Shown here piece by piece: positions 75-17,263 of a DNA stretch of 19,407 nucleotides (the stretch's first letter is position 1; each line of letters opens with the position of its first letter). The notes under the pieces were generated by a model. That model saw only the letters and a program-made list of their open reading frames with translations. It did not search any database and had not been told where the DNA came from. Origin of the DNA: Elusimicrobiota bacterium (GTDB lineage Bacteria > Elusimicrobiota > Elusimicrobia > Elusimicrobiales > UBA9959); the NCBI GenBank assembly GCA_037137395.1, contig JBAXKK010000049.1, positions 1 to 19,407 on the forward strand, read 5' to 3'. The position numbers and the translations under genes were made by a program.

Positions 75-213
75 GCCGTAAGCGAACTACGCCATAGGCG
101 ATAACGACTGCGATAAGCTGAAAATATGCCATAAGCTATAAGCTATAAGCCGTAGGCAGAATAGGATTGTCTTACTATTTGCGCTTCCCGTTTTACGATT
201 CACGATTGACGAT
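75..213 (+). repeat. Heptamer array R1
   Basis: gccataa gctataa gctataa gccgtag GCAGAAT aggattgtc TTACTAT ttgcgct tcccgtt ttacgat tcacgat tgacgat, directly abutting the ATG at 214. Confidence 0.9.
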
Positions 214-774
214 ATGAAAAGAATTTTTGATGTTGGTTTAGCTGTTTGTGCCCTGCTGATACTTGGGACGCCGATGCTTATTGTCGCTCTGGCGGTTAAG
301 TTGACTTCGCGGGGGCCGGTATTGTATTGGTCGGACAGGGTCGGGTTGGATAATGCTCTTTTTAGAATGCCCAAGTTCCGCACTATGCGCACGGATACTC
401 CGGCCGTGGCTACGCATCTCCTGGCTGATCCTGACAGCTTTATTACGCCGGCGGGGAAATTTCTGCGGAAATCCAGCCTGGATGAACTGCCTCAGTTGTT
501 CAGCATTCTTAAGGGGGATATGAGTTTTGTTGGACCCCGGCCGGCCCTGTTTAACCAGGAGGATCTTATACGGATGAGGACCGCTAAAGGTGTGCAGCGT
601 ATAACACCGGGGCTTACTGGTTGGGCGCAGGTGAACGGCCGTGATGAGCTGCCAATACCTGTTAAAGTTGATTTTGATGAATACTATCTAAAGAATCGTT
701 CTATAGGCTTCGATATGAAGATATTGTTTAGTACCGCTTTTCAGGCGCTGGCAGGGAAGGGCGTGAAGCATTAG
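214..774 (+). CDS. Small monotopic phosphoglycosyl transferase (Bac_transf family; initiating sugar transferase, PglC/CapM-like)
   Basis: KRIFD + hydrophobic helix, KFRTM, RKSSLDELPQL, GDMSFVGPRP and PGLTGWAQVNGR motifs. Confidence 0.92.
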   Translation: MKRIFDVGLAVCALLILGTPMLIVALAVKLTSRGPVLYWSDRVGLDNALFRMPKFRTMRTDTPAVATHLLADPDSFITPAGKFLRKSSLDELPQLFSILKGDMSFVGPRPALFNQEDLIRMRTAKGVQRITPGLTGWAQVNGRDELPIPVKVDFDEYYLKNRSIGFDMKILFSTAFQALAGKGVKH

Positions 775-794
775 AATGGATATGATGAATTTAT

Positions 795-960
795 GCCATA
801 GGCTATAAGCTTTAGGCCATAAGCGAACTATAAGCTATAGGCAGAATAGAGATTATTACTATTTACGCTTTCCGCTTTACGATTGACGCCGTTTGCTATT
901 TGCAGAATTGATTACTATTTGCGATTCACGCTTTACGATTGCCGATTCCCGATTGACGAA
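795..960 (+). repeat. Heptamer array R2 (two junction cores)
   Basis: gccatag gctataa gctttag gccataa ... GCAGAAT agagatta TTACTAT ttacgct ttccgct ttacgat ... gccgttt gctattt GCAGAAT tga TTACTAT ttgcgat tcacgct ttacgat tgccgat tcccgat tgacgaa. Confidence 0.9.
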
Positions 961-971
961 TTACACTGGGA

Positions 972-1040: not shown

Positions 1041-1670
1041 ATGAAATTTCAGGAGTTTAGCGCAAAATTTAGGGATTTGCCTTTATTGCCGACAAAATTG
1101 GCGCTGGCAGGTTCAGGCACGGCTGGACTTAATCAGCTTGAGCGCTGGCGTAAGCTGGGGCTTGTTGTCCGCCTTCGGCGCGGGCTTTATATTTTTGGGG
1201 AGGGGGAGCGGAAAATTGAGCCAAGCCGCGGTTATTTGGCCGGGCAGATTTATCAGCCCTCGTATGTAAGCCTTGAGTACGCGCTTAGCCGCTACGGGCT
1301 TATCCCGGAAAGGGTTGCGGATATCACTTCCGTCACAACAAAAAAAACGGCAAGTTTTGTGAATGAATTCGGGACATTCGTGTACCAAAGTGTTAAGCCC
1401 GCGGCTTTTCGCGGTTTTACGGCGCTTAAAGACGAAGCCGGCCTGTCGTATTTTATGGCTGAGCCGGAAAAAGCCGTCGCGGATTTTGTCTACCTTAATT
1501 TGGATAAAATTAAATCCGGGGCAGCTGCGCGGACGCTGCTGGACTCTTTCCGGTTTCAAAATCTACGCACATTAAGAAAGGTCAGGCTGGCCGCTTATTT
1601 TGCCCTTTTCGGCGTTAAAAAAATGCGGGAAGCCGCGCTGGCTCTGGCGGCGCTCGCGGAGGAGAGATGA
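1041..1670 (+). CDS. AbiEi-family antitoxin / transcriptional regulator (type IV TA)
   Basis: N-terminal wHTH-like segment (LERWRKLGLVVRLRRGLYIF), SYVSLEYALSRYGLIPE and AEPEKAVAD motifs. Overlaps the downstream toxin by ATGA. Confidence 0.85.
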   Translation: MKFQEFSAKFRDLPLLPTKLALAGSGTAGLNQLERWRKLGLVVRLRRGLYIFGEGERKIEPSRGYLAGQIYQPSYVSLEYALSRYGLIPERVADITSVTTKKTASFVNEFGTFVYQSVKPAAFRGFTALKDEAGLSYFMAEPEKAVADFVYLNLDKIKSGAAARTLLDSFRFQNLRTLRKVRLAAYFALFGVKKMREAALALAALAEER

Positions 1671-2467
1671 TCGAGGCCTTAAAGCAGGAAACAGCTGCCG
1701 GAGTTTCCCCGGAGGAGAAGGGCAACAGGGCAAGAGAGTTTTTGCAGATTCTCGCGCTTAAATCCTTGTCCGACCAGGGGGCGTTTTCAAATGTGGCTTT
1801 TATCGGCGGGACCGCCCTGCGCGTTTTATATGGCGTCAGGCGTTTTTCCGAGGATTTGGATTTTTCTATTACCAATCTTAAGGGTTATGATTTTAAGGGG
1901 CTCTGCGGCGGACTTGAACGGACTTTCCGTCTGAACGGGCTTACCGTGAAGCTGGATAAGGAAAATAAGAAAACTGTTAATTCGGTTTTTTTAAGTTTTC
2001 CGGGGTTGCCTAAAGCTTTGGGATTGTCCGGTCACAAAGAAGAAAAACTCTCAATTAAAATTGAGGTTGACACAAATCCTCCGGCCGGCTGGCAAACTCA
2101 GCGCGCGATCGTTAATAAAACATATCTTTTTGATATTCTTCATTATGATCTGTCCTCAATGTTTGCCGGCAAACTGCACGCCTGCTTTTACCGAAAATTC
2201 ACCAAAGGCCGCGATATTTACGACCTTTTCTGGTATCTTGGGCGAAAGTCCCGGCCTAATCTTGTTATGCTTAATAACGCTATTGCCCAGAGCCAGGGAA
2301 AAAGCCCCGGAATTACGGAGAGAAATTTAACGGAGTTTATGCTCAATGGGATCGCGCGCGTTGACCTGTCCGCGGCTAAGAAAGACGTGGAGAAATTTTT
2401 GGAAGATAAGTCCGAACTTAAGCTGTTTAACGCTGAGCTTCTGGCCGCGGCTATTAAGTCTTTGTAA
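1667..2467 (+). CDS. AbiEii/AbiGii-family nucleotidyltransferase toxin (type IV TA)
   Basis: FIGGTALR...RRFSEDLDF polbeta-type NTase motif, KIEVD, AGKLHA...KGRDIYDL. GGAG RBS upstream. Confidence 0.9.
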   Translation: MIEALKQETAAGVSPEEKGNRAREFLQILALKSLSDQGAFSNVAFIGGTALRVLYGVRRFSEDLDFSITNLKGYDFKGLCGGLERTFRLNGLTVKLDKENKKTVNSVFLSFPGLPKALGLSGHKEEKLSIKIEVDTNPPAGWQTQRAIVNKTYLFDILHYDLSSMFAGKLHACFYRKFTKGRDIYDLFWYLGRKSRPNLVMLNNAIAQSQGKSPGITERNLTEFMLNGIARVDLSAAKKDVEKFLEDKSELKLFNAELLAAAIKSL

Positions 2468-2565: not shown

Positions 2566-4461
2566 ATGAAGAAGACCTTTAACAGGCATCAGCATTGGCT
2601 TGTTTTCGCCGCGGACGCCGCTGCTGTTACTGTTTCTTACTGGGTCGCTTTCCAGTTGAGATTTGACCTTAACCTTCCTGAGATACAGGCTTCCAATCTA
2701 CTCAATACATTGGCGATTGTCGTAGTTATCCGGTTGGCGTCTTTCTACTCTTTCAACCTTTACCGCGGTATCTGGCGCTATGCCAGCATAGACGACCTTG
2801 CCTCCGTCTTTAAGGCTGTTCTGGCCAGCCAGGCGGTTATCGCGGCGGTCATACTCTTCATTAACTATTCCAATTTCCCGCGCGCCGTGATAATAATAGA
2901 CCCGATACTGACCATCGTTCTGGTCGGAGGGATAAGGTTCGCGATCAGGGTTACCCGTGAGATGCGCCATAGCGGCAACACACGGGAACTGACGAAAGTG
3001 CTTATTTTCGGCGCGGGCGATCTTGGGGAAAGCCTTTTGCGGGAGATAAGGCGGGATAAAACACATCGCTACAAAGTGGCCGGCTTTATAGACGATAACC
3101 CGGATATGTGGAACCATCAGATACACGGGGCTAAAATATTCGGCGGCCGCGGCGTACTGCCCAGGATAATAAGCAAATACGCTATCGATTCTGTAGTCGT
3201 CGCCGTGTCGCATTCCCGCGGCAAGCTGATAGGCGAATTGATGGACCTTTGCCATAACAGCCAGGTGCTGAAAAAGGTTCATTTTAAAACAGTGCCCACG
3301 CTTTCCGAATCTCTGGCTAAAACTCCCGGCGCGAAGGCGGCCAAGGGCCTCAGAAATGTGGAGTTAAGCGACCTGCTGAACCGCAGGCCGGTGCAGACGG
3401 ATATGAACGAGGTTTCCCGCCTTGTGGCCGGGAAAACCGTTCTGGTGACTGGCGCCGGCGGGACAATAGGGTCGGAACTCTGCCGCCAGATAGCGGCTTT
3501 CGGGGCCAAGCGTCTGCTGCTGCTTGAAAACCATAATACCGCGCTTTTTTACATAGACAAGGAACTTTGTGAAGCGGGTTACGGCGCTGAGATAATTCCG
3601 ATTTCCGGAGATGTGAAGGACAGAGGGCTGCTGAATAATCTGTTTCGCGCCTACAAGCCGGAGCTGGTGTTTCACGCGGCAGCCCACAAGCATGTGCCGC
3701 TTATGGAGGCCAATCCCCAGGAGGCCGTGAAAAACAACGCCTTGGCCACATTTGTGCTGGCCGAGACTGCGGCCGCCCACGGGGTTGAGCGGTTCCTGTA
3801 TATCTCCACCGATAAGGCGGTGAGGCCGTCCAGCGTGATGGGCGCGACCAAGCGCCTTGGCGAGATGGCGCTTACGAGCCTCGCGGCTTCTTCGGCCACA
3901 AAATATATTGCGGTGCGGTTCGGGAATGTGCTGGGCAGTTCAGGCAGCGCTTTTAATATCTTTCGCGAACAGATAGCCGCCGGCGGCCCGGTTACCGTAA
4001 CCCACCCTGAGATCACCCGCTATTTTATGACCACGCAGGAGGCTATCCAACTTATACTGCAGGCCTGCTCCATGGGGCGCGGCGGTGAGATATTTGTGCT
4101 GAACATGGGTGAACCTGTAAAGGTCCTGCAGATGGTGCGCAATCTGATAATGCTGGGGGGCCTTGAGCCCGAAAAGGATATAGCCATCAAATTTACGGGC
4201 CTGAGACCCGGAGAAAAGATGTACGAGGAACTCTTCAGGGCGGAAGATGTGCGCAAGGATACCGGCCACCCGGATATTTTTATGGCCATTCCCGAGGGCG
4301 CGAACGCTGCTATTTCAAAAGAGCAGGTGATGGAGCTTGGTGCCCTTTGCGATCTGCCGGATAAGACGCCGCTTTTGATAAAGATCCGGGACCTTGTTCC
4401 GGCATTTAAGAGAGCGCCGGCGGATAAGAAGGCGGCGGCCGCTAACGGCGACAACGCATGA
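2566..4461 (+). CDS. capD: Membrane-anchored UDP-GlcNAc 4,6-dehydratase (CapD/WbpM/PglF family)
   Basis: Four N-terminal hydrophobic helices, IFGAGDLG CoA-binding-like domain, TGAGGTIGSELCRQ, HAAAHKHVPLME, STDKAVRPSSVMGATKR, VRFGNVLGSSGS, GLRPGEKMYEEL. Confidence 0.93.
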   Translation: MKKTFNRHQHWLVFAADAAAVTVSYWVAFQLRFDLNLPEIQASNLLNTLAIVVVIRLASFYSFNLYRGIWRYASIDDLASVFKAVLASQAVIAAVILFINYSNFPRAVIIIDPILTIVLVGGIRFAIRVTREMRHSGNTRELTKVLIFGAGDLGESLLREIRRDKTHRYKVAGFIDDNPDMWNHQIHGAKIFGGRGVLPRIISKYAIDSVVVAVSHSRGKLIGELMDLCHNSQVLKKVHFKTVPTLSESLAKTPGAKAAKGLRNVELSDLLNRRPVQTDMNEVSRLVAGKTVLVTGAGGTIGSELCRQIAAFGAKRLLLLENHNTALFYIDKELCEAGYGAEIIPISGDVKDRGLLNNLFRAYKPELVFHAAAHKHVPLMEANPQEAVKNNALATFVLAETAAAHGVERFLYISTDKAVRPSSVMGATKRLGEMALTSLAASSATKYIAVRFGNVLGSSGSAFNIFREQIAAGGPVTVTHPEITRYFMTTQEAIQLILQACSMGRGGEIFVLNMGEPVKVLQMVRNLIMLGGLEPEKDIAIKFTGLRPGEKMYEELFRAEDVRKDTGHPDIFMAIPEGANAAISKEQVMELGALCDLPDKTPLLIKIRDLVPAFKRAPADKKAAAANGDNA

Positions 4462-5351
4462 ACCCGAAACACAGGATACTTATACTCGGAGGCGGCGGGA
4501 CGCTGGGTCATAAACTCTGGCAGGTCCTGGCCAAAAAATTCCCGGACACTTTTGTTTCTATACGCAAGAGTAAAGATTTTTACGCCAAATGCACCTTGTT
4601 TTCCGGCCCCAATGTCTTTGACTCGCTTGATTTGAGTGATTTTGCCGTGCTTAACAGGGTGCTGGACGAAATAAAGCCTTCGGTGATAGTGAATTGCGCC
4701 GGAGTTACCCCGCGCGGCAAGGACGCCGCGGACAGGAATTCCAACATTTCCATTAACGCGCTTTTGCCGCACAGGCTGGCCGAGTGGTGCGCGCGCGGCG
4801 GAGCCCGGCTGATACATTTCAGCACCGTTTGCGTGTTTGCCGGGAGCAAGGGCGGCTACAGTGAAGAAGCCCGGCCGGACGCTCATGACCTGTACGGGAT
4901 AACCAAGTCCCTTGGCGACGTTACAGCGCCTTGCGCGCTGACGCTCAGGTCTTCATTTATAGGCCGCGAGATATTCGGCGGGACCGAATTGCTGGAATGG
5001 TTTTTGGGGCGGCAAGGCCAAACTGTGCAAGGTTTCCGCAAGGCGCTTTTTACCGGCCTTACCACCAACCGCCTGGCGGAACTTGTAGCCGATCTGATAG
5101 AGAACCACCCTGCCCTTAACGGACTTTATCATGTTTCAAGCGAGACGCTTTCAAAATACGAGCTGTTAAAACTAATGAACGAAGCGTATAAACTGGACGC
5201 GCGTATTGAGCCTGAAGATACTTTTGAATGCAAGCGGGATATGGACGGAAGAAGATTTGAAAAAATGACCGGTTTTATATGTCCGCCCTGGCGGCGGATG
5301 ATGTTTGAGATGGCCGCGGACACTACACCCTACGCTGAATGGAGGAAATGA
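4458..5351 (+). CDS. RmlD-like NAD(P)-dependent 4-keto-6-deoxy sugar reductase (QnlA/WbvR-like)
   Basis: ILGGGGTLG Rossmann motif, VNCAG, INALLPHRLA, YGITK catalytic YxxxK, LLEWF. At 297 aa it has no C-terminal cupin domain. Confidence 0.8.
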   Translation: MNPKHRILILGGGGTLGHKLWQVLAKKFPDTFVSIRKSKDFYAKCTLFSGPNVFDSLDLSDFAVLNRVLDEIKPSVIVNCAGVTPRGKDAADRNSNISINALLPHRLAEWCARGGARLIHFSTVCVFAGSKGGYSEEARPDAHDLYGITKSLGDVTAPCALTLRSSFIGREIFGGTELLEWFLGRQGQTVQGFRKALFTGLTTNRLAELVADLIENHPALNGLYHVSSETLSKYELLKLMNEAYKLDARIEPEDTFECKRDMDGRRFEKMTGFICPPWRRMMFEMAADTTPYAEWRK

Positions 5352-5352
5352 A

Positions 5353-6420
5353 ATGATCTTTGATAAAAAAACGGTTTTGGTGACCGGCGGCACGGGGTCG
5401 TTCGGCAAGGTTTTTGTAAAGCGGGTGCTCAGCGGCGAGCAGGGCACGCCTAAAAAGCTGATAATTCTGTCGCGCGACGAGGCCAAACAGAACGACATGC
5501 GTATTTCCTACATGAAGAAAACCGTGGCCACCGACGAGGTTATTTATAATAACTTTAAGAATGTGCTGGAGTTCCGCATAGGGGATGTGCGCAGCTACGC
5601 CGATGTCTGTTCCGCCGTGAAGGGCGCAGACATTGTTATTAACGCGGCCGCCTTAAAGCAGGTGCCGGCCTGCGAATACTTTCCCGGACAGGCCGTGCTG
5701 ACCAATTGCCTCGGGCCGGAAAATATACTGCGCGCTATAAGAGAGAACGATTATCCGGTTGAGACCGTTATCGGCATAAGCACCGACAAGGCGTGCAAGC
5801 CGGTAAATGTGATGGGGATGACCAAGGCGCTGCAGGAGCGCATATTTACATCGGCCAATGTTCTTATCCCTAAGACCAGATTCGTCTGCGTGCGCTACGG
5901 CAATGTGCTGGCCTCGCGCGGCTCGGTTATACCGCTTTTTCATGAGCAGATAAAGCATGGCGGCCCAGTTACCATAACGGTCCCCGAGATGACGCGGTTC
6001 CTGCTCAGCCTTAACCAGGCCGTGGATACGGTGTTTGCTGCTATCAAGCACGGCAAGCGGGGCGAAACCTATGTGCCGATAGCCCCGGCCTCAAAGGTCA
6101 TAGATATCGCTAAGGCCCTCATCGGCGACAGGGATATAGAGATCAAGATAACCGGTATCAGGCCGGGCGAGAAGCTGGCCGAGATAATGGTATCGGAAGA
6201 AGAGATACACCATTGTCTTAAGCGCGGGGATTACTATGTTATCGCTCCCATGCTGCCGGAGCTACAGGAGAAGGGCGTAAAGATAGACAAGGTCCTTAAC
6301 AAAGAGTACAGTTCGGACGATGATCTGATGGATTTTGAACAAACTTTGTCCCTGCTAAAAAAGCAAAAACTGCTTATCGGGGAAGATAATTACAGCGGCA
6401 CCGGGGAGTTGTTGAGATAA
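5353..6420 (+). CDS. fnlA: UDP-GlcNAc 4,6-dehydratase/epimerase (FnlA/CapE/WbjB family)
   Basis: TGGTGSFG, SRDEAKQ, AAALKQVPACEYFP, STDKACKPVNVMGMTKAL, RYGNVLASRGSVIP, TRFLLSL, GIRPGEK. Start placed at ATG 5353 behind GGAGG (5341-5345). Confidence 0.88.
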   Translation: MIFDKKTVLVTGGTGSFGKVFVKRVLSGEQGTPKKLIILSRDEAKQNDMRISYMKKTVATDEVIYNNFKNVLEFRIGDVRSYADVCSAVKGADIVINAAALKQVPACEYFPGQAVLTNCLGPENILRAIRENDYPVETVIGISTDKACKPVNVMGMTKALQERIFTSANVLIPKTRFVCVRYGNVLASRGSVIPLFHEQIKHGGPVTITVPEMTRFLLSLNQAVDTVFAAIKHGKRGETYVPIAPASKVIDIAKALIGDRDIEIKITGIRPGEKLAEIMVSEEEIHHCLKRGDYYVIAPMLPELQEKGVKIDKVLNKEYSSDDDLMDFEQTLSLLKKQKLLIGEDNYSGTGELLR

Positions 6421-6442
6421 AGGATGGGGGACATGTTAGTTA

Positions 6443-6471
6443 TTGCAGTATACTGCACTATATCGTATACT
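6443..6471 (+). promoter_or_regulatory. Sigma70-like promoter of AAA_14 gene 1 with an overlapping perfect 14-bp palindrome
   Basis: TTGCAG (6443-6448), 17 bp spacer, TATACT (6466-6471). Palindrome TGCAGTATACTGCA at 6444-6457. Confidence 0.65.
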
Positions 6472-6480
6472 TAACTCATT

Positions 6481-7776
6481 ATGTCTGACAAGGTTAAAAT
6501 CAGGGAAGTGCTGCTTGATCAGTTGGGCGATATCCCCGGCATTTTGGATAAGTGCCGCGTTGAGCGCCTTGTCGAGCCTGAACTTCGCGCCGCCCTCGCG
6601 GATAATCTTGTTAAAGTTATAAGCGGCGTGCGCCGGTGCGGGAAGTCTGTTTTGGCCCATCGCGTATTAAAAGATCTGCCGTATGGTTACGTGAATTTTG
6701 ATGACGAACGATTGGCTGATATTACAACCGCTGATTTAAACCTTGTGCTGGAAGTTCTTCTGGAACTCCGGCCGGGCCTTAAATATATCCTGCTTGACGA
6801 AATACAGAATATTGAGAAATGGGAACTATTTGTCGCCCGGCTGCAGCGCGGCGGCTACAGAGTCATAATCACCGGCAGCAACGCCCATCTGTTAAGCCGG
6901 GATTTGTCTACCCATTTAACGGGGCGACATAAAGTTTTTGAAATTTATCCCTTTTCATTTCCGGAATATCTGCGTTCCCGCGGCATAGAGGCGCCGCGCG
7001 GCAAAGCTTTGAGCACCCGTTCCCGGGCCGAAATGAGCGCAGCCTTCTCGGACTATTTTGCCGTCGGCGGGTTTCCTGAACTTCCAGCTATTGTGGATAA
7101 AAAATCATATTTACACGACCTTTACGATAAAATTCTCACGCAGGATATAGCCCTGCGGCACGGCGTAAGGCATATCAAAACCCTTAAGGATATAGCGCTT
7201 TACACCGCGAATAATTACGCCTCCAGGCTTTCTTACCAGAATATTAAAAACGCTTACGCCCTTGGGAGCATACATACTGTTAAAAATTATCTGGCCTATA
7301 TGCAGGAGGCTTACCTCTTTTTTGCCGTGGAGGCGTTCTCACATAAAACGCGGGAGCGCGTGCGCCTGCCCAGGAAGATGTACGGCATTGACACCGCTTT
7401 GCTGCGGTCAATTTCCGTTTCAGGTCAGAAAAATGAGGGGCGTCTGCTTGAAAATATGGTCTATCTGGAACTGTTGCGCAGGAAAAAACAAGTTTCGTAT
7501 TACAGCGACACTCAGCGTAAATATGAGGTGGATTTCGTATGCGTTCAAAACGCCGGGGAGCCGGTGGAACTTATACAGGTCTGCCTGGATACCAGTATGG
7601 CGGAAGTTAAGGAGCGTGAGTTAAGGGGCCTGCAAAGCGCTTTAAACGCTTTCAAGAACATTTCAGCCGGCGGGCTGACGCTTATTACGCTTGACCGCGG
7701 CGGCACTGAGCGCGTAGCCGGCCGCCAGGTAAAATGCGTGCCGGTATGGGAGTGGCTGCTGGCAGGCGGCCGGTAG
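6481..7776 (+). CDS. AAA_14 family ATPase with C-terminal DUF4143 / PD-(D/E)xK-like domain
   Basis: Walker A GVRRCGKS, YVNFDDERL, Walker B ILLDEIQ, ITGSNA, LTGR, GGFPE, and C-terminal LENMVYLEL...YEVDFV...LIQV. Confidence 0.88.
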   Translation: MSDKVKIREVLLDQLGDIPGILDKCRVERLVEPELRAALADNLVKVISGVRRCGKSVLAHRVLKDLPYGYVNFDDERLADITTADLNLVLEVLLELRPGLKYILLDEIQNIEKWELFVARLQRGGYRVIITGSNAHLLSRDLSTHLTGRHKVFEIYPFSFPEYLRSRGIEAPRGKALSTRSRAEMSAAFSDYFAVGGFPELPAIVDKKSYLHDLYDKILTQDIALRHGVRHIKTLKDIALYTANNYASRLSYQNIKNAYALGSIHTVKNYLAYMQEAYLFFAVEAFSHKTRERVRLPRKMYGIDTALLRSISVSGQKNEGRLLENMVYLELLRRKKQVSYYSDTQRKYEVDFVCVQNAGEPVELIQVCLDTSMAEVKERELRGLQSALNAFKNISAGGLTLITLDRGGTERVAGRQVKCVPVWEWLLAGGR

Positions 7777-8946: not shown

Positions 8947-9117
8947 GCCATTGGCGATAGGCAGAAAATATGCCATAAGCTATAGGCTTTAGGCCATAGG
9001 CAGAAAAAACTGCCATTCGCCATTCGCCGTTTGCCATTTGCAGGATTGCTGACTATTTACGCTTTACGTTTTCCGTTTTATGCTTTCCGCTTTACGATTG
9101 TCGCTTTCCGTTTCCCG
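8947..9117 (+). repeat. Heptamer array R3
   Basis: gccataa gctatag gctttag gccatag gcagaaa / gccattc gccattc gccgttt gccattt GCAGGAT tgc TGACTAT ttacgct ttacgtt ttccgtt ttatgct ttccgct ttacgat tgtcgct ttccgtt. Confidence 0.9.
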
Positions 9118-9133
9118 GCTGTAATGCTAAGTA

Positions 9134-9162
9134 TTGAAAATTAGTTGCAACTAAATTATAAT
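9134..9162 (+). promoter_or_regulatory. Near-consensus sigma70 promoter of AbiE pair 2 with a perfect 14-bp palindrome in the spacer
   Basis: TTGAAA (9134-9139), 17 bp spacer, TATAAT (9157-9162). Palindrome TTAGTTGCAACTAA at 9141-9154. ATG follows at 9170. Confidence 0.75.
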
Positions 9163-9169
9163 ACATATA

Positions 9170-9943: not shown

Positions 9944-10568
9944 TAATAAGACGCTGGCGGCCTGTTTAGGGCTTCTTGGGCGACAGATCTTTACCGCGCG
10001 GGAGCTGGCAGCCGTTTCGGGACGGTCGGCTTCAGTTGTGTCACAGGGGTTGGCTTTTCTTCAGAAACAGGGACTGGCTGTAAAGGTGGCGCACGGCGTA
10101 TGGGCTTCCGGCAGTTCCATGCCTAGCCCGTACGCGGTAATCCCGTACCTTTTTCCAAGGCAAAGATGTTATGTTTCATTTACAAGCGCCCTTCACCTGC
10201 ATGGTATCATAGAGCAGATCCCGCAGGTTATCACGCTGGCGTCCGTCGCCCACACGCGGGAAATTAATACCAACGCGGGGAACTATCTGGCGCATCATCT
10301 GGCGCCCTCATTCTTTACGGGTTTCAGCTGGCATGAAAAGGGCGGATTTTTAATCGCAGAGCCGGAAAAAGCGCTTGTGGATTGTCTTTATGTGTCGGCG
10401 TTCCGCAACCGGCAGTTCTCACATTTTCCGGAGTTGAAGTTTCCGTCCGCCTTCAGCTTTAAAAGAGCTGTCGCCTGGGCGGCCCTGATCAAAAACGGAG
10501 CGGCGCTGAAACACGCGCTTAAGCGGCTTGCGGAAATAAAAGTGGCAAGCGTAAATCGGGAAGCGTAA
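9933..10568 (+). CDS. AbiEi-family antitoxin / wHTH regulator (second copy)
   Basis: IFTARELA...LAFLQKQGLAVKVAHGVW wHTH, YVSFTSALHLHGIIEQIP, IAEPEKALVD. Start placed at ATG 9933 behind AAGGAG. The last codons and the stop lie inside array R4. Confidence 0.83.
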   Translation: MPPNNKTLAACLGLLGRQIFTARELAAVSGRSASVVSQGLAFLQKQGLAVKVAHGVWASGSSMPSPYAVIPYLFPRQRCYVSFTSALHLHGIIEQIPQVITLASVAHTREINTNAGNYLAHHLAPSFFTGFSWHEKGGFLIAEPEKALVDCLYVSAFRNRQFSHFPELKFPSAFSFKRAVAWAALIKNGAALKHALKRLAEIKVASVNREA

Positions 10569-10828
10569 AGCGGGAATAGTAAATCGTAAAGCGTAAAGCG
10601 GGAAGCGTAAATCGTAAAGCGTAAAGCGGGAAGCGTAAAACGGAAATCGTAAAGCGGAAAACGTAAAGCGTAAAGAGTAAGAAATCTCTGTTCTGCTTAT
10701 GGCCTAAATCGTAAAGCGGAAAACGGGAAGCGGAAATAGTAAGAAGTCTTTATTCTGCTTATGGCCTAAAGCTTATGGCTTATGGCGTAGTTCGCTTACA
10801 GCCTATGGCATAGTTATTCGCTTATGGC
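10548..10828 (-). repeat. Heptamer array R4 (inverted relative to the other five)
   Basis: 19 in-phase 7-mers at 10548-10680 (agcgtaa/atcgtaa/agcggga...), then two reverse-complement junction cores (10674-10696, 10736-10758) and ttatggc/ctatggc units. Confidence 0.92.
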
Positions 10829-10829
10829 A

Positions 10830-12032
10830 ATGAAAATCTTAATTATTACCGATCGGTTTTATCCTGAAGAATTTATTATTAACGATCTGGCATCCGAATG
10901 GGCGGCCAGGGGTTTCATTGTGGACGTGCTTACACAGGCGCCAAGCTACCCGTTTGGCAAGATCTTTCCCGGCTACTCCAACCGCCTTTTTTCAAGGGAA
11001 ACCTGGAAAGGCGTAAATATCTCCAGATTTTTTACCGTGACCGGTTACAGAAAATCCCTTTTCCTGAAGCTACTGTGCTATTTCAACTTCGCCTTTGTTT
11101 CAAGCATTATTGCGCTCTTGATAGGGCGGCGTTACGACATAGTATTTGTTTATCAGACCGGTCCCGTGACGCAGGCGCTCCCGGCTGTGCTTATACGTAA
11201 AGTTTACGGCAAGCCTTTTACCATGTGGGTGCAGGATGTCTGGCCGGACATGGCGTACGCCTACGGTTTTAAGAAAACATGGCTGATGAAGTCATTCCTT
11301 GATAGGCTGGTGGGTTTTATCTACCGTAATACCGATAATATCGTGGTTTCCTGCGCCGGGTTCGCCAAAAGCATAGAGCCGTATGTTCCCGGCAAACTGA
11401 TGCCGCATTTCCCCAACTGGCCGACAGTGACTCCCGACCAGACTGGCGGCGCTGGCGTTAAGCTTTCGGATAAGTTTAATTTCACCTTTGCCGGCAACAT
11501 AGGAAAGTTTCAGAATCTTGAGAATGTTATACGCGGCTTCGGGTTGGCCTTCGCCGAGAATCCTGACATGCAACTGAATATAGTGGGGGATGGTTCATAC
11601 CAGGAGCGCCTTAAGAAAATAGTGTTCCGGTATGCCATAGGCGGCGTGGTTTTCTGGGGGCGCAAGAAGCAGGAAGAGATGCCCGGGTATTTCAGGGCCA
11701 GCGATGTTATGGTAATCTCGCTTTGCGACCAGCCGGGTGTCGGGCTTACAGTGCCGGCAAAGTTTCAGGCTTATCTGGCCTTCGCCAAGCCTGTTTTCTG
11801 CGTTATGAACGGCGAAGTAAAGCGCGTAGTGGAAGAGTATAATACAGGCCTCTGCGCTCCGCCGGATAGCCCTGAACACATAAAGGCGGGGTTTCTCAAA
11901 TTTTATTCGCTAAAAGGTTCCGGCCTTGAAACTTTCTCCGCCAACTCACGCTTATTACTTGAAAAGATTTATAACAGGGAAAAGATAATAGAGGGGATCA
12001 CAGATTTAGTAACGAAAGCAAAATGCCATTAG
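10830..12032 (+). CDS. GT4 family glycosyltransferase (WbuB/CapL/WbjE-like)
   Basis: MKILIITDRFYPE start, VLTQAPSYP, WVQDVWPD, FAGNIGKFQNLE, IVGDG, VPAKFQAYLAFAKPV. The stop codon lies inside array R5. Confidence 0.88.
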   Translation: MKILIITDRFYPEEFIINDLASEWAARGFIVDVLTQAPSYPFGKIFPGYSNRLFSRETWKGVNISRFFTVTGYRKSLFLKLLCYFNFAFVSSIIALLIGRRYDIVFVYQTGPVTQALPAVLIRKVYGKPFTMWVQDVWPDMAYAYGFKKTWLMKSFLDRLVGFIYRNTDNIVVSCAGFAKSIEPYVPGKLMPHFPNWPTVTPDQTGGAGVKLSDKFNFTFAGNIGKFQNLENVIRGFGLAFAENPDMQLNIVGDGSYQERLKKIVFRYAIGGVVFWGRKKQEEMPGYFRASDVMVISLCDQPGVGLTVPAKFQAYLAFAKPVFCVMNGEVKRVVEEYNTGLCAPPDSPEHIKAGFLKFYSLKGSGLETFSANSRLLLEKIYNREKIIEGITDLVTKAKCH

Positions 12033-12166
12033 CCATTCGCCGTTGGCCGTTTGCCATAGGCAGAATAACGATCGCCATAGGCTATAAGCTTTAGGCCATA
12101 GGCAGAACAGAGATTTCTTACTCTTTACGTTTTCCGCTTTACGGTTCCCGATTTACGCTTTACGAT
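12025..12166 (+). repeat. Heptamer array R5
   Basis: gccatta gccattc gccgttg gccgttt gccatag gcagaat / gccatag gctataa gctttag gccatag GCAGAAC agagatttc TTACTCT ttacgtt ttccgct ttacggt tcccgat ttacgct ttacgat. Confidence 0.9.
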
Positions 12167-12188
12167 TATTGCCTTAGGGTAGAGCCTA

Positions 12189-12234
12189 TTGCGGATTATC
12201 AGGATATTATGCATAATATATGCATAATATTATG
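12189..12234 (+). promoter_or_regulatory. Probable promoter of AAA_14 gene 2 with overlapping palindromes
   Basis: TTGCGG (12189-12194), 17 bp spacer, CATAAT (12212-12217). Perfect 16-bp palindrome ATATTATGCATAATAT (12204-12219), tandem TATGCATAATA x2 (12208-12229) and palindrome CATAATATTATG (12223-12234). Confidence 0.55.
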
Positions 12235-13377
12235 GCAAATTCCTTTAAAAGAACTCTTTCCTTACCGTCCTTGCTGGGGACGGCGAGTCATTTTCTGTTT
12301 GGCCCGCGTTCAATAGGGAAAACTTACCTTATAAAAAAACAACTGCCGGACGCTAAGGTTTACGACCTTTTAGATTCGGATGTTTTTGGGCGGTTAGCCC
12401 GCAGGCCTAAAACGCTTGGTGAGGAACTTTCTAAAACAGATAAGCTGGTCGTTATTGACGAAATACAGAAACTCCCTGTGCTGCTGGATGAAGTACACCG
12501 CCTTATAGAGACGAAGGGAACACGTTTTCTGCTTACCGGCAGCAGCGCGCGCAAACTGCGGCATGGCGGCAGTAACCTGCTTGGGGGTAGGGCACGCCAG
12601 GCGCATCTGTACCCTCTTTGCTTCCCTGAAATACCGCATTTTGATCTGGTTACATATTTGAACCGGGGTGGTATCCCGCGTATTTTGCCGCTTGAAGATT
12701 ATGAAGCGGAACTGCGCGGCTACGCGGATCTATACCTGCGCGAGGAGATAACAGCGGAGGCTCTGGTACGCAATATAAGCCAATTTGCCCGCTTTCTGGA
12801 CGTTATGGCGCTTCAGAACGGCGAGGAACTGAATTATGAAGGTATTGCCAGCGACTGCGGGGTTCCGGCCCGTACTCTTCAGAATTACGTCCAGATCCTG
12901 GAGGAAACGCTGATTGGCTTCCCTGTGCATTCTTTCCGGGCCACAAAAAAACGCAAAGCTATCACGCGTTCCAAATTCTTTCTGTTTGATGTGGGCGTAA
13001 CCAACGTTATGGCCCAGCGGGGGGAAATTAAGCCTCGCAGCGAGCTTTTTGGCAAATGTTTTGAGCATTTCCTATTCCTTGAACTGCGCGCGTATCTTGG
13101 CTACCGAAGACTGCCGCAGGCGCTTCAGTACTGGCGAAGTACCACAGGGTTTGAGGTGGATTGTGTTTTAGGCGACCGTCTTGCGCTGGAATTTAAAGCT
13201 AGTGACGCGGTGACGGAGAGACATTTGCGCGGGCTTAAGGCTTTGCGCGAAGAAGGCCTGGTGCGGAATTTTGCGGTGATTTCACAAGATCCTGAACTGC
13301 GGGTGGTAGACGGTATAACCATATACCCGTGGCGGAAATTTCTGGAAGCCTTATGGGCGGATAAAATCTTGAATTAA
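12232..13377 (+). CDS. AAA_14 family ATPase with C-terminal DUF4143 / PD-(D/E)xK-like domain (second, divergent copy)
   Basis: Walker A GPRSIGKT, Walker B VIDEIQ, LTGSSARKL, LLGGRA, GGIP, FEHF...YWRS...EVDCV...LEFK. The start could alternatively be 12220. Confidence 0.88.
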   Translation: MANSFKRTLSLPSLLGTASHFLFGPRSIGKTYLIKKQLPDAKVYDLLDSDVFGRLARRPKTLGEELSKTDKLVVIDEIQKLPVLLDEVHRLIETKGTRFLLTGSSARKLRHGGSNLLGGRARQAHLYPLCFPEIPHFDLVTYLNRGGIPRILPLEDYEAELRGYADLYLREEITAEALVRNISQFARFLDVMALQNGEELNYEGIASDCGVPARTLQNYVQILEETLIGFPVHSFRATKKRKAITRSKFFLFDVGVTNVMAQRGEIKPRSELFGKCFEHFLFLELRAYLGYRRLPQALQYWRSTTGFEVDCVLGDRLALEFKASDAVTERHLRGLKALREEGLVRNFAVISQDPELRVVDGITIYPWRKFLEALWADKILN

Positions 13378-13427
13378 GGTGACACACAACTTAATTGCCT
13401 GTAATTAAGTTGTGTGTCACCTTAATT
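13372..13427. repeat. Perfect 25-bp inverted repeat with a 6-nt spacer between convergent genes (bidirectional terminator and/or REP-like element)
   Basis: AATTAAGGTGACACACAACTTAATT (13372-13396) gcctgt AATTAAGTTGTGTGTCACCTTAATT (13403-13427). Confidence 0.85.
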
Positions 13428-15253
13428 GGTATTAGAGGGCCGGAGGCGGGGATAGTGAATAAAATTTTATTGTTGAGTCCGCCTTTGAAAAGAGAACCGA
13501 ATCTGTCCCGGAAAGCCTTGTCTGTTTTTGCCAGAAGCACAAAATCATATCCTGCCAGATTTTTACGCCATGCTTGAGCGGACCAGTCGGCCGTCCAGAT
13601 GTCTCCCGGATAGTACGGAACGCCCAATGACCAGGGCGCGCTGCGCGTGCTTGTGACGCGCGGCGCAAGTTCATAAGCTAATATCCAGGCTTCGTAACCT
13701 TTTGAGTCCTGCCACACTATATAAACCCTCTTATCAAGGCCGATCAGCGGCGTGATGTTCCGTATCTGCTGCTGAATAGCGGCCCTTATATCGTTGTCGG
13801 GGGTTCCCCGCAGTTTTATCAGAAACTTTGACGCGGTGGAAAATGAAAGGAATAAAACCCACAGCAGAATAATTCCGGTAAGCGCGGGCGAAGGTTTCTG
13901 ACCCTCAGGATCTTCCGGTAAAACGCGTGACAGCAGGGCGATAAGCGCCACGCACCAGCCAAGTAAATAGATGTTAAGGTAGCGCCCGAATGAAGCCGCC
14001 CTTACGCCCTCATATTCGCCGAAGGAGTATAGATACATAAAAAGCATGCCGGCGAGATAAACCCCGAAGCCAAACATCATAAATCTAAGAGTTATCCCGG
14101 CTTGCGCGCGCTCCCGGCGCCGTTTCTCGGCTCTAAAAATTAATACTGAGAGGGCGAGCAGCAGAACTATTTGTATCTTAAAGGACAATAGCGATTTTTT
14201 AAACTTTATCAATGTCGCTTTGTCCCTGCCGGTGGCTTCGGTCCGGGAAAAACTTTTGCGGATCGCTGAGAGGGAAGGCTTTATCGTAAATGTCTGTGAG
14301 AGCCCCAAGGTCTTTACCCGGCTGCCCCAGCTTTTTGAGGCCGCAAGCGGGGCTAATATCAGCCCGGCGCACAGGATCATAAGAATGATACGCTTCTTGC
14401 CGCGGTCACCTGCCGCCGGCTCTTGCGCCTGTGATGTTAAGAGGTCAGTAATGATGATTGCCGCGGCTATCAGCGCCAGCAAAAGCCCGGAGGCTTTTAT
14501 CAGCGGGAGGATAAACAATACCGGGAGGGCGCGGATCATGGCGGCGGCGTCATATCTGCCGGAAATTAAATAGGCCGCCGGGACCAGGCCGAACAGGAAA
14601 CCCACCAGAAGATCCACATATAATTTCTGCAATTTGTAGCCGAAAAGAGCGAGGGCTATGCATGAGACGGCTATTATCGCCAATACCCTGATCCAATTAT
14701 TCCGGCAACGAGTTTCGGTTAAGGCCAGGACGGCCGAGAACAGAAAGAGCGCCTGGGCAAAATATGTCGCGCCTTCCGACCAGCCGGTAAAGCAGGTAAT
14801 GTAATATTGAAAGAGTGCGGTACCGGGGGGGTAATCTTTCAGGTACAGCGCGCTATCCGGCGCGGGAAAAGAATTCGAAAATAACATTTCCTTGGCGGCG
14901 AATCCCCAGTGTGAGAACTCATCCCAGGCGCCATAGCCCGCGCCCGAAAGCGTGAACCAAAGCAGTATGGCGGCGGCAAAAAAAAGAACCGGCCCAGGCT
15001 CAGTCAGGCAGGACCAGCCCGCTTTGGGATCTTTTCGCGCCTTATACAAGCCGATGATTCCAAGCGCGACGCCGGTAAAAGCGAGCAGGCGGGCGCCTGG
15101 CAGCAGTAAACCCGTCATGCCAGCCGCGTACAGAGCGGTTATGAGGGAAGAGATGGTAAATAAAGGGAGTGCGGCGGTCGGCCACCGGGTAAACTGACGA
15201 AGGAAAATAAAATATCCGGCGAATGAGGCTAGGAGTAAAATAAGGCCTGTCAT
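13391..15253 (-). CDS. Polytopic membrane protein, probable GT-C fold glycosyltransferase (GtrC/ArnT-like role)
   Basis: More than ten hydrophobic segments, a first large loop with acidic WDEFSHWG and DYPPG motifs, LYVD, and a soluble C-terminal domain. Translationally coupled (ATGA) to the GT2-GtrA fusion. Confidence 0.65.
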   Translation of the reverse strand: MTGLILLLASFAGYFIFLRQFTRWPTAALPLFTISSLITALYAAGMTGLLLPGARLLAFTGVALGIIGLYKARKDPKAGWSCLTEPGPVLFFAAAILLWFTLSGAGYGAWDEFSHWGFAAKEMLFSNSFPAPDSALYLKDYPPGTALFQYYITCFTGWSEGATYFAQALFLFSAVLALTETRCRNNWIRVLAIIAVSCIALALFGYKLQKLYVDLLVGFLFGLVPAAYLISGRYDAAAMIRALPVLFILPLIKASGLLLALIAAAIIITDLLTSQAQEPAAGDRGKKRIILMILCAGLILAPLAASKSWGSRVKTLGLSQTFTIKPSLSAIRKSFSRTEATGRDKATLIKFKKSLLSFKIQIVLLLALSVLIFRAEKRRRERAQAGITLRFMMFGFGVYLAGMLFMYLYSFGEYEGVRAASFGRYLNIYLLGWCVALIALLSRVLPEDPEGQKPSPALTGIILLWVLFLSFSTASKFLIKLRGTPDNDIRAAIQQQIRNITPLIGLDKRVYIVWQDSKGYEAWILAYELAPRVTSTRSAPWSLGVPYYPGDIWTADWSAQAWRKNLAGYDFVLLAKTDKAFRDRFGSLFKGGLNNKILFTIPASGPLIPIKVTHNLITGN

Positions 15254-16974
15254 GCTTCCCCGGGGCTTATCGCTTTAGCCTGCTCTCCGGTCTTGTCCGC
15301 CCGCGCGACAATTATCCCCTGTGTGAGGATGATCTTCCAGTTTATGGTCCGGTAGAGTATCGTCCCGTAGCGCGCCATTTCCCGCTCCACCGCAGCGGGT
15401 TGCAAAGGCCGCTCATCATGGAAAAGCCACAGGCCCAGGCTTTCGGCCAGGTTCCGTGTGGCGCGGTAAAGCCAGGTGGGGGTGGGGAAAGATATGATCA
15501 CCAGTCCTCCCTGTTTTGCGCAGGCGAAATGAGACTGTATGGCTTTTGCGGTATCCTTGGGTGAGAAATGTTCGATAAGACCGGCGCTGAAAACAACATC
15601 CGCTGAGGAGACAGCCTGCGCGTCGGCGAGAATATCATTTTCAAGCAGCGCTACTTTTTTAGGCGAGGGGCATCTGTTTGCCAGCAGGTCAAGGCCTTTG
15701 CGATTGGTGTCCAGAACGGTGTAAAAAGCTTCGGGATACCCGGCTGTCAGCGAAGAGAAAAAACAACTGTTGGCGCCGCCCAGTTCGCAGAAGCTGGTTA
15801 TGGCTGCGGGTTTGAATTTTTCTATCAGGCGCAGGAATAGTCTGCCGGTTATGCGCCTGGTTATGGATGCAAAGGGCGAAGGCGCCCCGTAATATGAATC
15901 CCAGTCCGTGCCCTTCGGTCCGGCGGCGGCCCCGGGGGCGCCGTCCTCACGCCTGGCGAAAACCAGCAACCCCTGGGCGGCGAAGCTGGCGAAGAATAGC
16001 CCACCTTCAGCCAGCAGCTTTGCCGAGAAAACGCCTAAGCCTGAAAAGATCACAAGGCTTGTTACCAGGCCGTAGGAGACGAACATCAGCAGAGTTACAA
16101 GCAGAATATAGCGCGACAGCTCCGGCGCCGTGCGCTCGCGGGACTTGAACACAAGCGCTTTACCCACGGTGAAATTGAAAAAGCCGGCTACGCAGCGCGC
16201 TATCACAATGCTGATGAAGATGCGGGAGGATAAAAAATAGGCGGCGGAAAATACCGCGTAATCCAAGGCTGCCGTTATAAGCGAGGCGGCTGAAAATCTG
16301 AGGAAAACGAAATAGACGCGCAGGGAATCCAGCAGGGGGTTGAAATGAGATTTTTCATTCTGCCCGATGTAGACGGTTTTTATGGATGTCTCGGTAATTT
16401 TCCTGCGCGAACGCACAGCCATCAGCAGCATTTCCAGCTCGAATTCATAGCCGGTGGCCGGGATCTTCAGTAATTCCGGCAGGAATTCTCGTGGTATGCC
16501 GCGCAGGCCTGTTTGAGTATCCTTTATTTCCCGGCCAGAAAGAAAATGGAAAACCAGGCGCGTTACGCTGTTGCCGAAAAGGCTCCGCTTGGGGGTTTTT
16601 GAATCAAAGCTTCTGATACCCAGAGCCAGGCTGCCGGGATTTTTGACCAGGGCCCGGCCGACGGCCGCTATGTCTTCGGGCAGGTGCTGTCCGTCGGCGT
16701 CAGCTGTTACCACGCCCGGACAGTCAGTTTTGAAATTCAGCAGGAAATAGTTGAAAGCTGTTTTAAGAGCCTGACCTTTGCCCATGTTAACCGCGTGGCG
16801 CAGCATATGTACGCGGGGCAGAGCGCCCAGCGCCAGTAAAATAGCGGCGTGAGGCTGCGAGGAGCCGTCATCGACTATAATTACATCACGCCCCGGATCC
16901 TCAAGGAGTTTTTTTACCAGCGGTTCAAGTTCCGGACCTGGCTGATACGCTGGTATTATAACTGGTGGAAGCAT
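15250..16974 (-). CDS. Fusion of a GT2 polyprenol-phosphate glycosyltransferase, a GtrA-like flippase and a class I SAM-dependent methyltransferase
   Basis: IIPAYQP, VDDGS, NMGKGQALK, TADADGQH, DTQTGLRG, YEFELEML, SHFNPLLDS (GT2). About four hydrophobic helices with FNF...VFKS (GtrA). ELGGANS, DVVFSAGLIEHF, GGLVIISFP (MTase). Start placed at 16974 because the upstream codons are repeat-derived. Confidence 0.82.
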   Translation of the reverse strand: MLPPVIIPAYQPGPELEPLVKKLLEDPGRDVIIVDDGSSQPHAAILLALGALPRVHMLRHAVNMGKGQALKTAFNYFLLNFKTDCPGVVTADADGQHLPEDIAAVGRALVKNPGSLALGIRSFDSKTPKRSLFGNSVTRLVFHFLSGREIKDTQTGLRGIPREFLPELLKIPATGYEFELEMLLMAVRSRRKITETSIKTVYIGQNEKSHFNPLLDSLRVYFVFLRFSAASLITAALDYAVFSAAYFLSSRIFISIVIARCVAGFFNFTVGKALVFKSRERTAPELSRYILLVTLLMFVSYGLVTSLVIFSGLGVFSAKLLAEGGLFFASFAAQGLLVFARREDGAPGAAAGPKGTDWDSYYGAPSPFASITRRITGRLFLRLIEKFKPAAITSFCELGGANSCFFSSLTAGYPEAFYTVLDTNRKGLDLLANRCPSPKKVALLENDILADAQAVSSADVVFSAGLIEHFSPKDTAKAIQSHFACAKQGGLVIISFPTPTWLYRATRNLAESLGLWLFHDERPLQPAAVEREMARYGTILYRTINWKIILTQGIIVARADKTGEQAKAISPGEA

Positions 16975-16985
16975 AAAGAAAGGAT

Positions 16986-17263
16986 GCCATTCGCCGTTTG
17001 CCATTGGCCATTAGCAGAGTGAAAATTGCCGTTTGCTATTTGCCATTTGCCGTTGGCAGAGTAAGACTGCCATTAGCCATTCGCCGTTGGCCATTTGCAG
17101 AATTGCTGACTATTTACGATTCACGATTGCCGATTTACGCTAACGACTGCCATAGGCTATACGCTTTAAGCCATAGGCAGAATAAGAAGCGCTATTTGCC
17201 ATTAACCATTTGCCATACGCAGAATTGCTTACTATTTGCGCTTTCCGCTTCCCGCTTTACGCT
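16986..17263 (+). repeat. Heptamer array R6 (five A-modules, two junction cores)
   Basis: Five blocks of exactly four GCYRTNN-type units, each capped by GCAGART. Two continue into tgc-TKACTAT plus four TTACGMT-like units. Confidence 0.92.

What the first reader, a model, noticed from the sequence alone, without database searches (positions are those of the whole stretch)
75..17263. Family of six grammar-following heptamer arrays marking gene boundaries: candidate cassette/recombination system
Seen: arrays at 75-213, 795-960, 8947-9117, 10548-10828 (inverted), 12025-12166 and 16986-17263. All are built from three degenerate 7-mer classes: A1 (GCCATAG/GCTATAA/GCTTTAG), A2 (GCCATTN/GCCGTTN) and B (TTACGCT/TTACGAT/TTCCGCT/TCCCGAT). 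They are polar: A units end in a GCAGAAT cap that faces a TTACTAT cap starting the B units. They are not simple microsatellites, not CRISPR and not classical REP hairpins, and I do not recognise them as a named element. All lie at gene boundaries in a polysaccharide locus, and four border accessory TA/ATPase cassettes. Inference: they are two-armed protein-binding or recombination sites (arm-core-arm) through which accessory genes are inserted, deleted or shuffled in the surface-glycan locus, an integron-like logic. No recombinase is encoded in this window.
Basis: partly seen in the sequence, partly recalled or inferred. Interest (0 to 1): 0.88.

Follow-up and report, generated by a model that had tools for sequence, protein, structure and literature searches.

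The report
Hybrid heptamer arms in glycan operon
The six repeat arrays are real, but they are a young hybrid form of a genome-wide family of 7-base repeat arms that normally bracket a small four-helix-bundle gene and crowd into gene junctions; they are not the recombination sites of an integron-like system.

Summary
The six polar arrays exist as described. They are 17 of 714 heptamer arms in this genome (8 unit classes; 651 versus 1 in shuffled DNA at the strict score). Most arms form same-class hairpins at stop-codon-to-start junctions. B arms bracket the genome's one intact four-helix-bundle (IVS/S23p) gene, A1 arms bracket one in the sister genome, and periodic arms flank 56 of 76 such genes across phyla. 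This scan found that cassette link before on other DNA. What is particular here is a non-folding A-core-B hybrid module with a fixed core: 49 copies here, 15 in the sister genome, one in 78 others. The integron reading fails most tests: no integron integrase; gene-sized differences are no commoner at arrays (7/123 versus 20/250); the same TA and ATPase genes enter relatives' glycan loci without arrays (0/12 homologues flanked). Partial support remains: all four cassettes missing from the sister genome sit at junctions with an array in one genome, and hybrid modules neighbour 6/18 AAA_14 genes. Arrays of another class replace each other at the same junction (11/32 versus 7/208). Best reading: selfish junction elements, perhaps lending homology for shuffling.

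The parts
1..49 (+). 3' end of an AbiEii gene (the rest lies on contig C171, which overlaps the window start by 55 nt)
75..213 (+). Array 1: A1 arms and one A1-core-B module (128-212) ending at the sugar-transferase start codon
214..774 (+). Bacterial sugar transferase (PF02397); one of three copies in the genome, each preceded by a hybrid module
795..962 (+). Array 2: two tandem hybrid modules (827-889 long core, 887-952 short core); G001 has an 8-mer arm joined to a B arm here
1041..2467 (+). AbiEi-like plus AbiEii (PF08843) pair with a promoter-like site at 972-1000; G001 has a different AbiE-like pair here; no array at its right end
2566..6420 (+). Core nucleotide-sugar genes (PF02719, PF04321, PF02719), 93% identical in G001
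6481..7776 (+). AAA_14/DUF4143 ATPase with no array; G001 has an A2 hairpin (fold z -6.4) in its place
7801..8934 (+). UDP-GlcNAc 2-epimerase (core)
8947..9117 (+). Array 3: A1 arms and an A2-core-B module (9012-9090); homology with G001 ends at the A cap (9006)
9124..10568 (+). AbiEii (9170-9943) plus AbiEi-like (9933-10568) pair with an 11/12 promoter match at 9134-9162; homology with the closest foreign copies spans about 9124-10542, from B arm to B arm; the second gene takes its stop codon from the arm
10539..10828 (-). Array 4: long B arm and two hybrid modules (10640-10707, 10704-10786), inverted relative to array 3 and complementary to it
10830..12032 (+). GT4 glycosyltransferase (core); its last codons differ from G001 and its stop lies in array 5
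12024..12168 (+). Array 5: A2 and A1 arms and a hybrid module (12074-12158); G001 has an 8-mer arm joined to a B arm here
12220..13377 (+). AAA_14/DUF4143 ATPase, absent from G001
13372..13428 (.). Non-heptamer palindrome (family Z, 22 matches in the genome; half-sites flank a Y1/RAYT-type transposase on C47)
16985..17265 (+). Array 6: A2 arms and two hybrid modules (17069-17141, 17191-17265) between two core genes; shorter in G001, with no gene difference

Best explanation
The arrays are non-autonomous relics of a small selfish cassette: a four-helix-bundle (23S rRNA-IVP/S23p) gene bracketed by inward-facing runs of a 7- or 8-nt unit. SHOWN: such arms bracket the gene here and across phyla; most arm pairs in this genome lack the gene and fold as hairpins; they sit between a stop codon and the next start in operons; the first arm read usually supplies stop codons; and a junction that holds an array in one species often holds one of another class in its sister. 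INFERRED: the cassette is copied into stop-to-RBS junctions by a local event that replaces the spacer and often the last codons. It is tolerated because the arm restores a stop, then loses its gene and is overwritten by later invasions. The window's arrays are a lineage-specific hybrid: an A-type left arm fused through a fixed core to a B-type right arm. It cannot pair, so it must spread at the DNA level, most likely by recombination or gene conversion into existing A or B arms and by tandem amplification. TA and ATPase genes traffic through this glycan locus on their own; arrays gather at the same permissive junctions. The mobilising enzyme is not identified. My guess (about 0.3) is that the Avd-like four-helix bundle binds the arms and recruits a host polymerase or reverse transcriptase.
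For: The intact gene C76:12003-12350 (TIGR02436, PF05635) is bracketed by inward B arms, and a G001 copy by inward A1 arms. Periodic arms on both sides of 14 of 27 family and 56 of 76 GTDB four-helix-bundle genes versus 0 of 25 and 0 of 67 control windows; same class on both sides in 7 of 7 family loci that could be classed. Of 186 close two-arm sites 127 are same-class (31 expected), and 53 of the 59 mixed ones are within A1/A2/B. Fold z below -3 for 114 of 137 same-type sites versus 2 of 38 A-B sites. The first arm starts within -20..+10 nt of the upstream stop in 162 of 325 co-oriented spacers. Stops in all three frames in left-reading versus right-reading arms: A1 92 vs 13 of 134, B 49 vs 0 of 108, C 80 vs 24 of 85. 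Class replaced in place in 11 of 32 versus 7 of 208, OR 15, p 7e-7. Last 12 nt of the upstream gene more changed at changed junctions (2.3 mismatches vs 1.4 and 1.0), with no identity dip further in. Full hybrid module: 49 copies in G000, 15 in G001, 1 in 78 other family genomes, also in nuo, pyruvate kinase, lpxC/lpxD, exbD and thiolase operons. At four junctions G001 has a bare A or B arm where G000 has that arm plus a module.
Against: No insertion intermediate or enzyme was seen, and gain versus loss between G000 and G001 is not polarised. One intact arm-flanked gene stands against about 700 arms. Class A2 rarely carries stops in all frames (6 of 77), and class D carries more in the right-reading sense. 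A-versus-B unit similarity does not single out this pair (3.36 of 7; B versus D is 3.84), so why only A and B mix is unexplained. The control windows are mostly coding DNA. The G001 sample (570 kb of 2.6 Mb) was chosen around array matches, and loci absent from G001 could not be scored. Hybrid modules are enriched beside AAA_14 genes, which the plain relic model explains only by shared permissive sites.
Confidence: 0.62

Rival explanations
1. Hybrid modules are passive portable homology. Once several lie in direct orientation in a variable locus, host homologous recombination between them inserts, deletes or swaps the genes in between. This can hold together with the best explanation.
For: Modules adjoin 6 of 18 AAA_14 genes versus 54 of 2352 genes; 5 of 21 AAA_14 plus AbiEii genes outside the window, p 8e-5. 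Neighbouring module clusters are co-oriented in 11 of 13 cases in variable loci versus 1 of 5 in housekeeping operons (hand count; p 0.02). Contig C75 alternates modules with MNT-HEPN, ATPase and unknown gene pairs. Breakpoints lie in the arrays at 9006 and about 10794. In run X4, whose core genes are about 93% alike, a contig from 12152 (inside the B arm) to 13401 has only 6 other letters, hinting at recent exchange of that ATPase.
Against: The enrichment rests on five contigs and is not independent. None of 13 module spacers outside the window shows a gene difference. An AbiE pair and an AAA_14 gene replace each other between C75 and G001:C121 with no array in either. Arms of any class are not enriched beside AAA_14 genes, 8 of 18 versus 659 of 2352, p 0.12.
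Confidence: 0.3
2. One reading: arm-core-arm sites of a dedicated site-specific, integron-like system. An A hairpin (target) recombining with a B-bounded circle would give exactly the A-core-B, cargo, B-core-A layout at 8947-10828.
For: The layout at 8947-10828 fits attL/attR logic, and G001 keeps outer A arms with a short filler there. The core length is fixed. Foreign homology of that TA pair runs from B arm to B arm. G001 has a second hybrid type, 8-mer arm plus B arm, at two junctions where the window has A plus B.
Against: No integron integrase over cut-off in 7 of 7 genomes. Modules do not fold. Cassettes carry promoter-like sites. Only one cassette has the inverted layout. Outward class matching is at chance. 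Mixed sites other than A/B are rare, 6 of 186. 0 of 12 homologues of the AbiEii have adjoining arrays. No enrichment of gene differences at arrays. The module exists in essentially two genomes, while the cassettes move across the family.
Confidence: 0.08
3. The accessory genes are moved, if by any repeat, by the other small palindromes (families Y and Z) and their Y1/RAYT-type transposases; heptamer arrays are bystanders.
For: Z closes the second ATPase cassette, lies around the AAA_14 pair on C126 and at a sugar-transferase replacement in G001. Z and Y flank Y1_Tnp genes on C47 and C4. Z adjoins 3 of 18 AAA_14 genes versus 27 of 2352 genes.
Against: Most cassettes have neither Y nor Z at their ends, and counts are small.
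Confidence: 0.15
4. The arrays are ordinary slippage-born simple repeats that arise in place and have no mobile ancestor.
For: Unit numbers vary freely between G000 and G001. Heptamer repeats are known to be over-represented in bacteria (PMC4692102, passages).
Against: Strict inward polarity, eight shared classes, a fixed hybrid core in 49 copies and the tie to four-helix-bundle genes across phyla do not follow from slippage alone.
Confidence: 0.07

Closest known systems
Intergenic heptamer repeats of Xanthomonas and Nostoc (Rehm et al. 2015, PMC4692102, passages read) and cyanobacterial STRR heptamers (name recalled; the Calothrix heptanucleotides are mentioned in those passages)
   Same: Tandem 7-nt units, intergenic, often as convergent inverted pairs (70 and 75 cases in the two xanthomonads), function unknown.
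   Different: Here eight or more classes coexist, the units are not G-quadruplex type, arrays are replaced by other classes at the same junction, and one hybrid non-pairing module is amplified.
S23p-encoding 23S rRNA intervening sequence (Coxiella IVS; PMC4990558, passages read)
   Same: A four-helix-bundle gene inside an element bordered by complementary ends; the arms of the intact copies here pair (duplex -40 and -63 kcal/mol).
   Different: Sits in mRNA operon junctions, not in rRNA; ends are tandem repeats; the window's copies have no gene and do not pair; RNase III excision untested.
Integron cassette arrays (attC/IntI; PMC5027507, PMC3053210, PMC11641012, search listing and start of abstracts only)
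   Same: Short repeated sites between accessory TA-type genes, mostly in direct orientation in variable loci.
   Different: No integron integrase, sites do not fold, cassettes have promoter-like sites, sites also lie in housekeeping operons, and the cassettes move without them.
REP/BIME mosaics with RAYT transposases (Delihas 2011, PMC3184786, passages read)
   Same: Many small intergenic repeats built into mosaic clusters, linked to recombination and mRNA stability.
   Different: Arms are tandem heptamers, not roughly 35-nt palindromes; in this genome the Y1 transposases are flanked by other palindromes (Y, Z), not by heptamer arms.

Membership tests
Integron cassette array | Integron integrase (TIGR02249) in the genome | tested here: not met
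   0 of 7 genus genomes over cut-off; best 76 bits against 265
Integron cassette array | attC site folds as a single-strand hairpin | tested here: not met
   7 window modules z -0.6 to +1.0; 2 of 38 A-B sites with z below -3; folded with RNA parameters
Integron cassette array | One site after each promoterless cassette | tested here: not met
   Three of four window cassettes lack a right-hand array; promoter-like sites at 972-1000 and 9134-9162, though the scan total is near chance, 23 versus 18.5
Arm-flanked four-helix-bundle (IVS/S23p-like) cassette | Same arm classes bracket a PF05635 gene as an inward pair | tested here: met
   B arms at C76:11950-12377; A1 arms at G001:C82
Arm-flanked four-helix-bundle (IVS/S23p-like) cassette | The window's arrays themselves enclose the gene or form a same-class stem | tested here: not met
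   No PF05635 hit on C49; modules are hybrid and unpaired; only arrays 3 and 4 pair with each other, around a TA pair
23S rRNA intervening sequence | Located in 23S rRNA | tested here: not met
   No Rfam match in the window or in the two four-helix-bundle loci L032 and L038
23S rRNA intervening sequence | Excised from RNA by RNase III | not testable with these tools
   Needs RNA end mapping
Bacterial intergenic heptamer repeats (STRR-like) | Tandem 7-nt units, dispersed, mostly intergenic, often as inverted pairs | tested here: met
   654 of 714 arms outside called genes; 186 close inward pairs
REP/RAYT | Repeat flanks a Y1 tyrosine transposase | tested here: inconclusive
   4 Y1_Tnp genes; those on C47 and C4 are flanked by palindrome families Z and Y; heptamer arms beside all four were not tabulated
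CRISPR array or known RNA family | Rfam match, or regular repeat-spacer structure | tested here: not met
   No Rfam match; periods of 7, 14, 28 and 62 only within arrays

The most novel reading that the evidence does not exclude
Heptamer arms are the recognised ends of an undescribed junction-targeting mobile system built on the Avd-like four-helix-bundle protein. It overwrites stop-to-RBS spacers, its half-sites can be fused into non-pairing hybrids that still spread, and in surface-glycan loci such hybrids have begun to capture and shuffle TA and ATPase genes (the B-to-B TA pair inside an A pair being one captured cargo).
Probability: 0.2. Interest if true: 0.85.

Novelty: new variant of a known kind. 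Interest (0 to 1): 0.46.

Why it matters
Bacterial heptamer repeats and the S23p protein family are both unexplained in the papers I read. This genome pair adds three testable handles: arrays are replaced by another class at the same gene junction far above chance; the change is local to the stop codon; and a hybrid that cannot form an RNA stem still reached 49 copies, so pairing is not needed for spread. If the hybrids also lend homology for gene shuffling in surface-glycan loci, a selfish repeat would be shaping surface variation and defence-gene content. The claim of a new integron-like system is not borne out.

Tried and rejected
Integron integrase: none over cut-off; six tyrosine-recombinase matches, none on C49. 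Rfam: nothing in the window. Reciprocal attL/attR class matching genome-wide: at chance. Import of junction alleles by long homologous tracts from divergent donors: no identity dip in flanking coding DNA, all p >= 0.06; close donors would not show. A-B unit likeness as the reason for mixing: not distinctive. Other cargo inside inward arm pairs: ten loci were read by ORF listing only; one held RNase P RNA and no further four-helix-bundle gene is in the genome search. Reverse transcriptase: a single one, beside the Avd-like gene on C52, which has no arms; no link to the arrays shown. Sequencing runs: no RNA holder listed. All laid runs were contigs at 88% likeness, so circles could not be sought. 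The X4 joint 9006-10767 has only 23 letters on its short side and may come from another A hairpin, so I do not count it as the empty allele (my notebook entry 4 overstated it). Parts without cover in X4 (1295-1941, 9706-10352) and the half depth of its contig over the first AAA_14 gene are not used as evidence. The single module in G089 lies in a 13-kb stretch 83-95% like G000:C17: shared island or binning error, not counted as independent. Look-alike search of earlier findings by sequence and by relatives gave nothing. No structure or complex prediction was run.
Full report
OBSERVATION. It is a surface-glycan locus with two AbiEi/AbiEii pairs and two AAA_14/DUF4143 genes among the core genes. 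The window holds 17.

GRAMMAR. Every class has a polarity. Of 186 close inward two-arm sites, 127 are same-class (31 expected); 53 of the 59 mixed ones are within A1/A2/B. Same-type sites (A1 and A2 pooled) fold: z below -3 in 114 of 137. A-B sites do not: 2 of 38 (sites over 160 nt left out). A-B sites share a core of two fixed lengths, whereas hairpin loops vary freely, so the A-B module is one dispersed family. It has 49 copies here, 15 in sister genome G001 and one in 78 other family genomes, on DNA 83-95% like our C17. It lies in variable loci and also in nuo, pyruvate kinase, lpxC/lpxD, exbD, truB and thiolase operons (75 neighbours of the 34 sites outside the window scanned). Arms prefer co-oriented junctions, start at the upstream stop (162 of 325 within -20..+10 nt), and in the left-reading sense usually carry stops in all frames, A2 and D excepted.

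WHAT THE ARMS ARE. Earlier scan notes said such arms bracket four-helix-bundle genes; I tested this. The genome's one intact PF05635 gene, C76:12003-12350, lies between inward B arms; the second hit is an Avd-like gene beside the only reverse transcriptase and has no arms. A G001 copy lies between inward A1 arms. Periodic arms flank both sides of 14 of 27 family loci (4 of 31 dropped at contig edges) and 56 of 76 GTDB loci (4 of 80 dropped), against 0 of 25 and 0 of 67 control windows 350 nt further out, which are mostly coding. So both halves of the window's module are arms of that cassette, fused.

TEST OF THE CASSETTE-SITE IDEA. G001 keeps the core genes at 90-93% and lacks all four window cassettes. 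At 774-2565 it has a different AbiE-like pair with arrays on both sides; that pair occurs in G002 and G004 with no arrays by my scans. At 6420-7800 the window has an ATPase and no array, and G001 an A2 hairpin. At 8934-10829 homology ends at the A cap (9006) and resumes in the right array; the window's two arrays pair strongly with each other. At 12032-13390 G001 has an 8-mer arm joined to a B arm and no ATPase. In run X4, joints of equal depth (19.7) link the epimerase end to A arms and A arms to the GT4 start, which fits an allele without the TA pair, but the loop was not shown. Across 373 syntenic spacers, from 570 kb of G001 chosen around array matches, gene-sized differences occur in 7 of 123 with arms and 20 of 250 without, p 0.53; four of the seven are in the window, and the rows were not hand-curated. 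Of 17 hybrid-module spacers 3 differ, all in the window. None of 12 AbiEii homologues has an adjoining array, though some sit in glycan loci. An AbiE pair and an ATPase replace each other between C75 and G001:C121 with no array. No integron integrase exists in the 7 genus genomes. On the other side, modules adjoin 6 of 18 AAA_14 genes (one of 19 dropped for lack of a gene call) against 54 of 2352 genes, and they are mostly co-oriented in variable loci; these counts come from five contigs.

THE ARRAYS THEMSELVES TURN OVER. Among 309 small co-oriented spacers, 68 share a class, 21 have an array only here, 7 only in G001, 12 have different classes (11 after removing a duplicate mapping) and 201 have none. 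A different class is found in 11 of 32 junctions where ours is not shared, against 7 of 208 where we have none (OR 15); undetected 8-mer classes make this a lower count. The exbB-exbD-tonB junctions in five genomes are variously empty or filled with different classes. Replacement runs from the last codons to the RBS, with no divergence gradient further into the genes. At four junctions G001 has a bare arm where G000 has the arm plus a module; direction is unknown.

MECHANISM. Shown: anatomy, the tie to four-helix-bundle genes, junction placement, replacement in place, and amplification of a non-pairing hybrid. Inferred (0.62): a selfish cassette copied into stop-to-RBS junctions, tolerated because the arm restores a stop, losing its gene and being overwritten; the hybrid spreads by recombination into existing A or B arms and by tandem gain. 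Secondary role as portable homology for gene shuffling: 0.3. Dedicated site-specific system: 0.08. The enzyme is unknown; a role for the Avd-like protein is a guess.

LITERATURE. I read passages only of PMC4692102, PMC6749651, PMC4990558 and PMC3184786; integron features come from a search listing and abstract starts and recall. Searches turned up no paper whose listing ties heptamer arms to four-helix-bundle genes outside rRNA or describes a hybrid module; the library lacks most subscription papers, and no supplements were read. The STRR name and STRRs in cyanobacterial RNase P RNA are recalled. The scan itself has noted the arm-cassette link in 43 other findings.

VERDICT. A real feature and a new variant of a known but unexplained kind; the integron-like reading is mostly not supported. 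Interest 0.46.

Noticed in passing
G000:C27:26878-27379 (L122): An inward A1 arm pair brackets the RNase P RNA gene (RF00010, 216 bits); the arms pair (duplex -46 kcal/mol), so they could form a processing stem.
   Followed up: partly
L036 (G006:C3) and L037 (G002:C11): A four-helix-bundle domain with heptamer arms is fused in frame to the front of a roughly 1200-aa protein; the right arm reads as part of what looks like the signal-peptide region.
   Followed up: partly
window 1-55; G000:C171, C126, C23: C171 (an AbiE pair) runs into both the window start and the reverse of C126. Three sugar-transferase copies (85-93% alike) are each preceded by a hybrid module: duplicated loci or strain variants, unresolved.
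   Followed up: partly
window 13372-13428; G000:C47, C4, C75, C126: Two further palindrome families (22 and 26 matches) flank Y1/RAYT-type transposases and also border accessory genes in glycan loci.
   Followed up: partly
G000:C52:12491-14000: A diversity-generating retroelement-like set: reverse transcriptase, Avd-like gene and a template-like stretch.
   Followed up: no
L021:2588-2795 (G001:C105): A truncated 5' piece of a sugar-transferase gene, a Z half-site and a module remnant precede the intact gene: trace of a gene replacement.
   Followed up: no
G000:C74:3972-4104, C172:442-558 and G001 L106:13933-14046: One gene junction appears with three different hairpin classes, two of them within the G000 bin.
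   Followed up: partly
window 15250-16977: A GT2, GtrA and methyltransferase three-domain fusion, conserved in G001.
   Followed up: no
L136 (G089:C44:8000-21015) and G000:C17: A 13-kb stretch 83-95% alike between two genera and mostly absent from G001: shared island or binning error.
   Followed up: partly
G000:C58:14666-14861 and many short hairpin loops: Arm classes with longer, about 10-nt-spaced units exist too, and many hairpin loops share a short near-palindromic motif whose origin I did not resolve.
   Followed up: no
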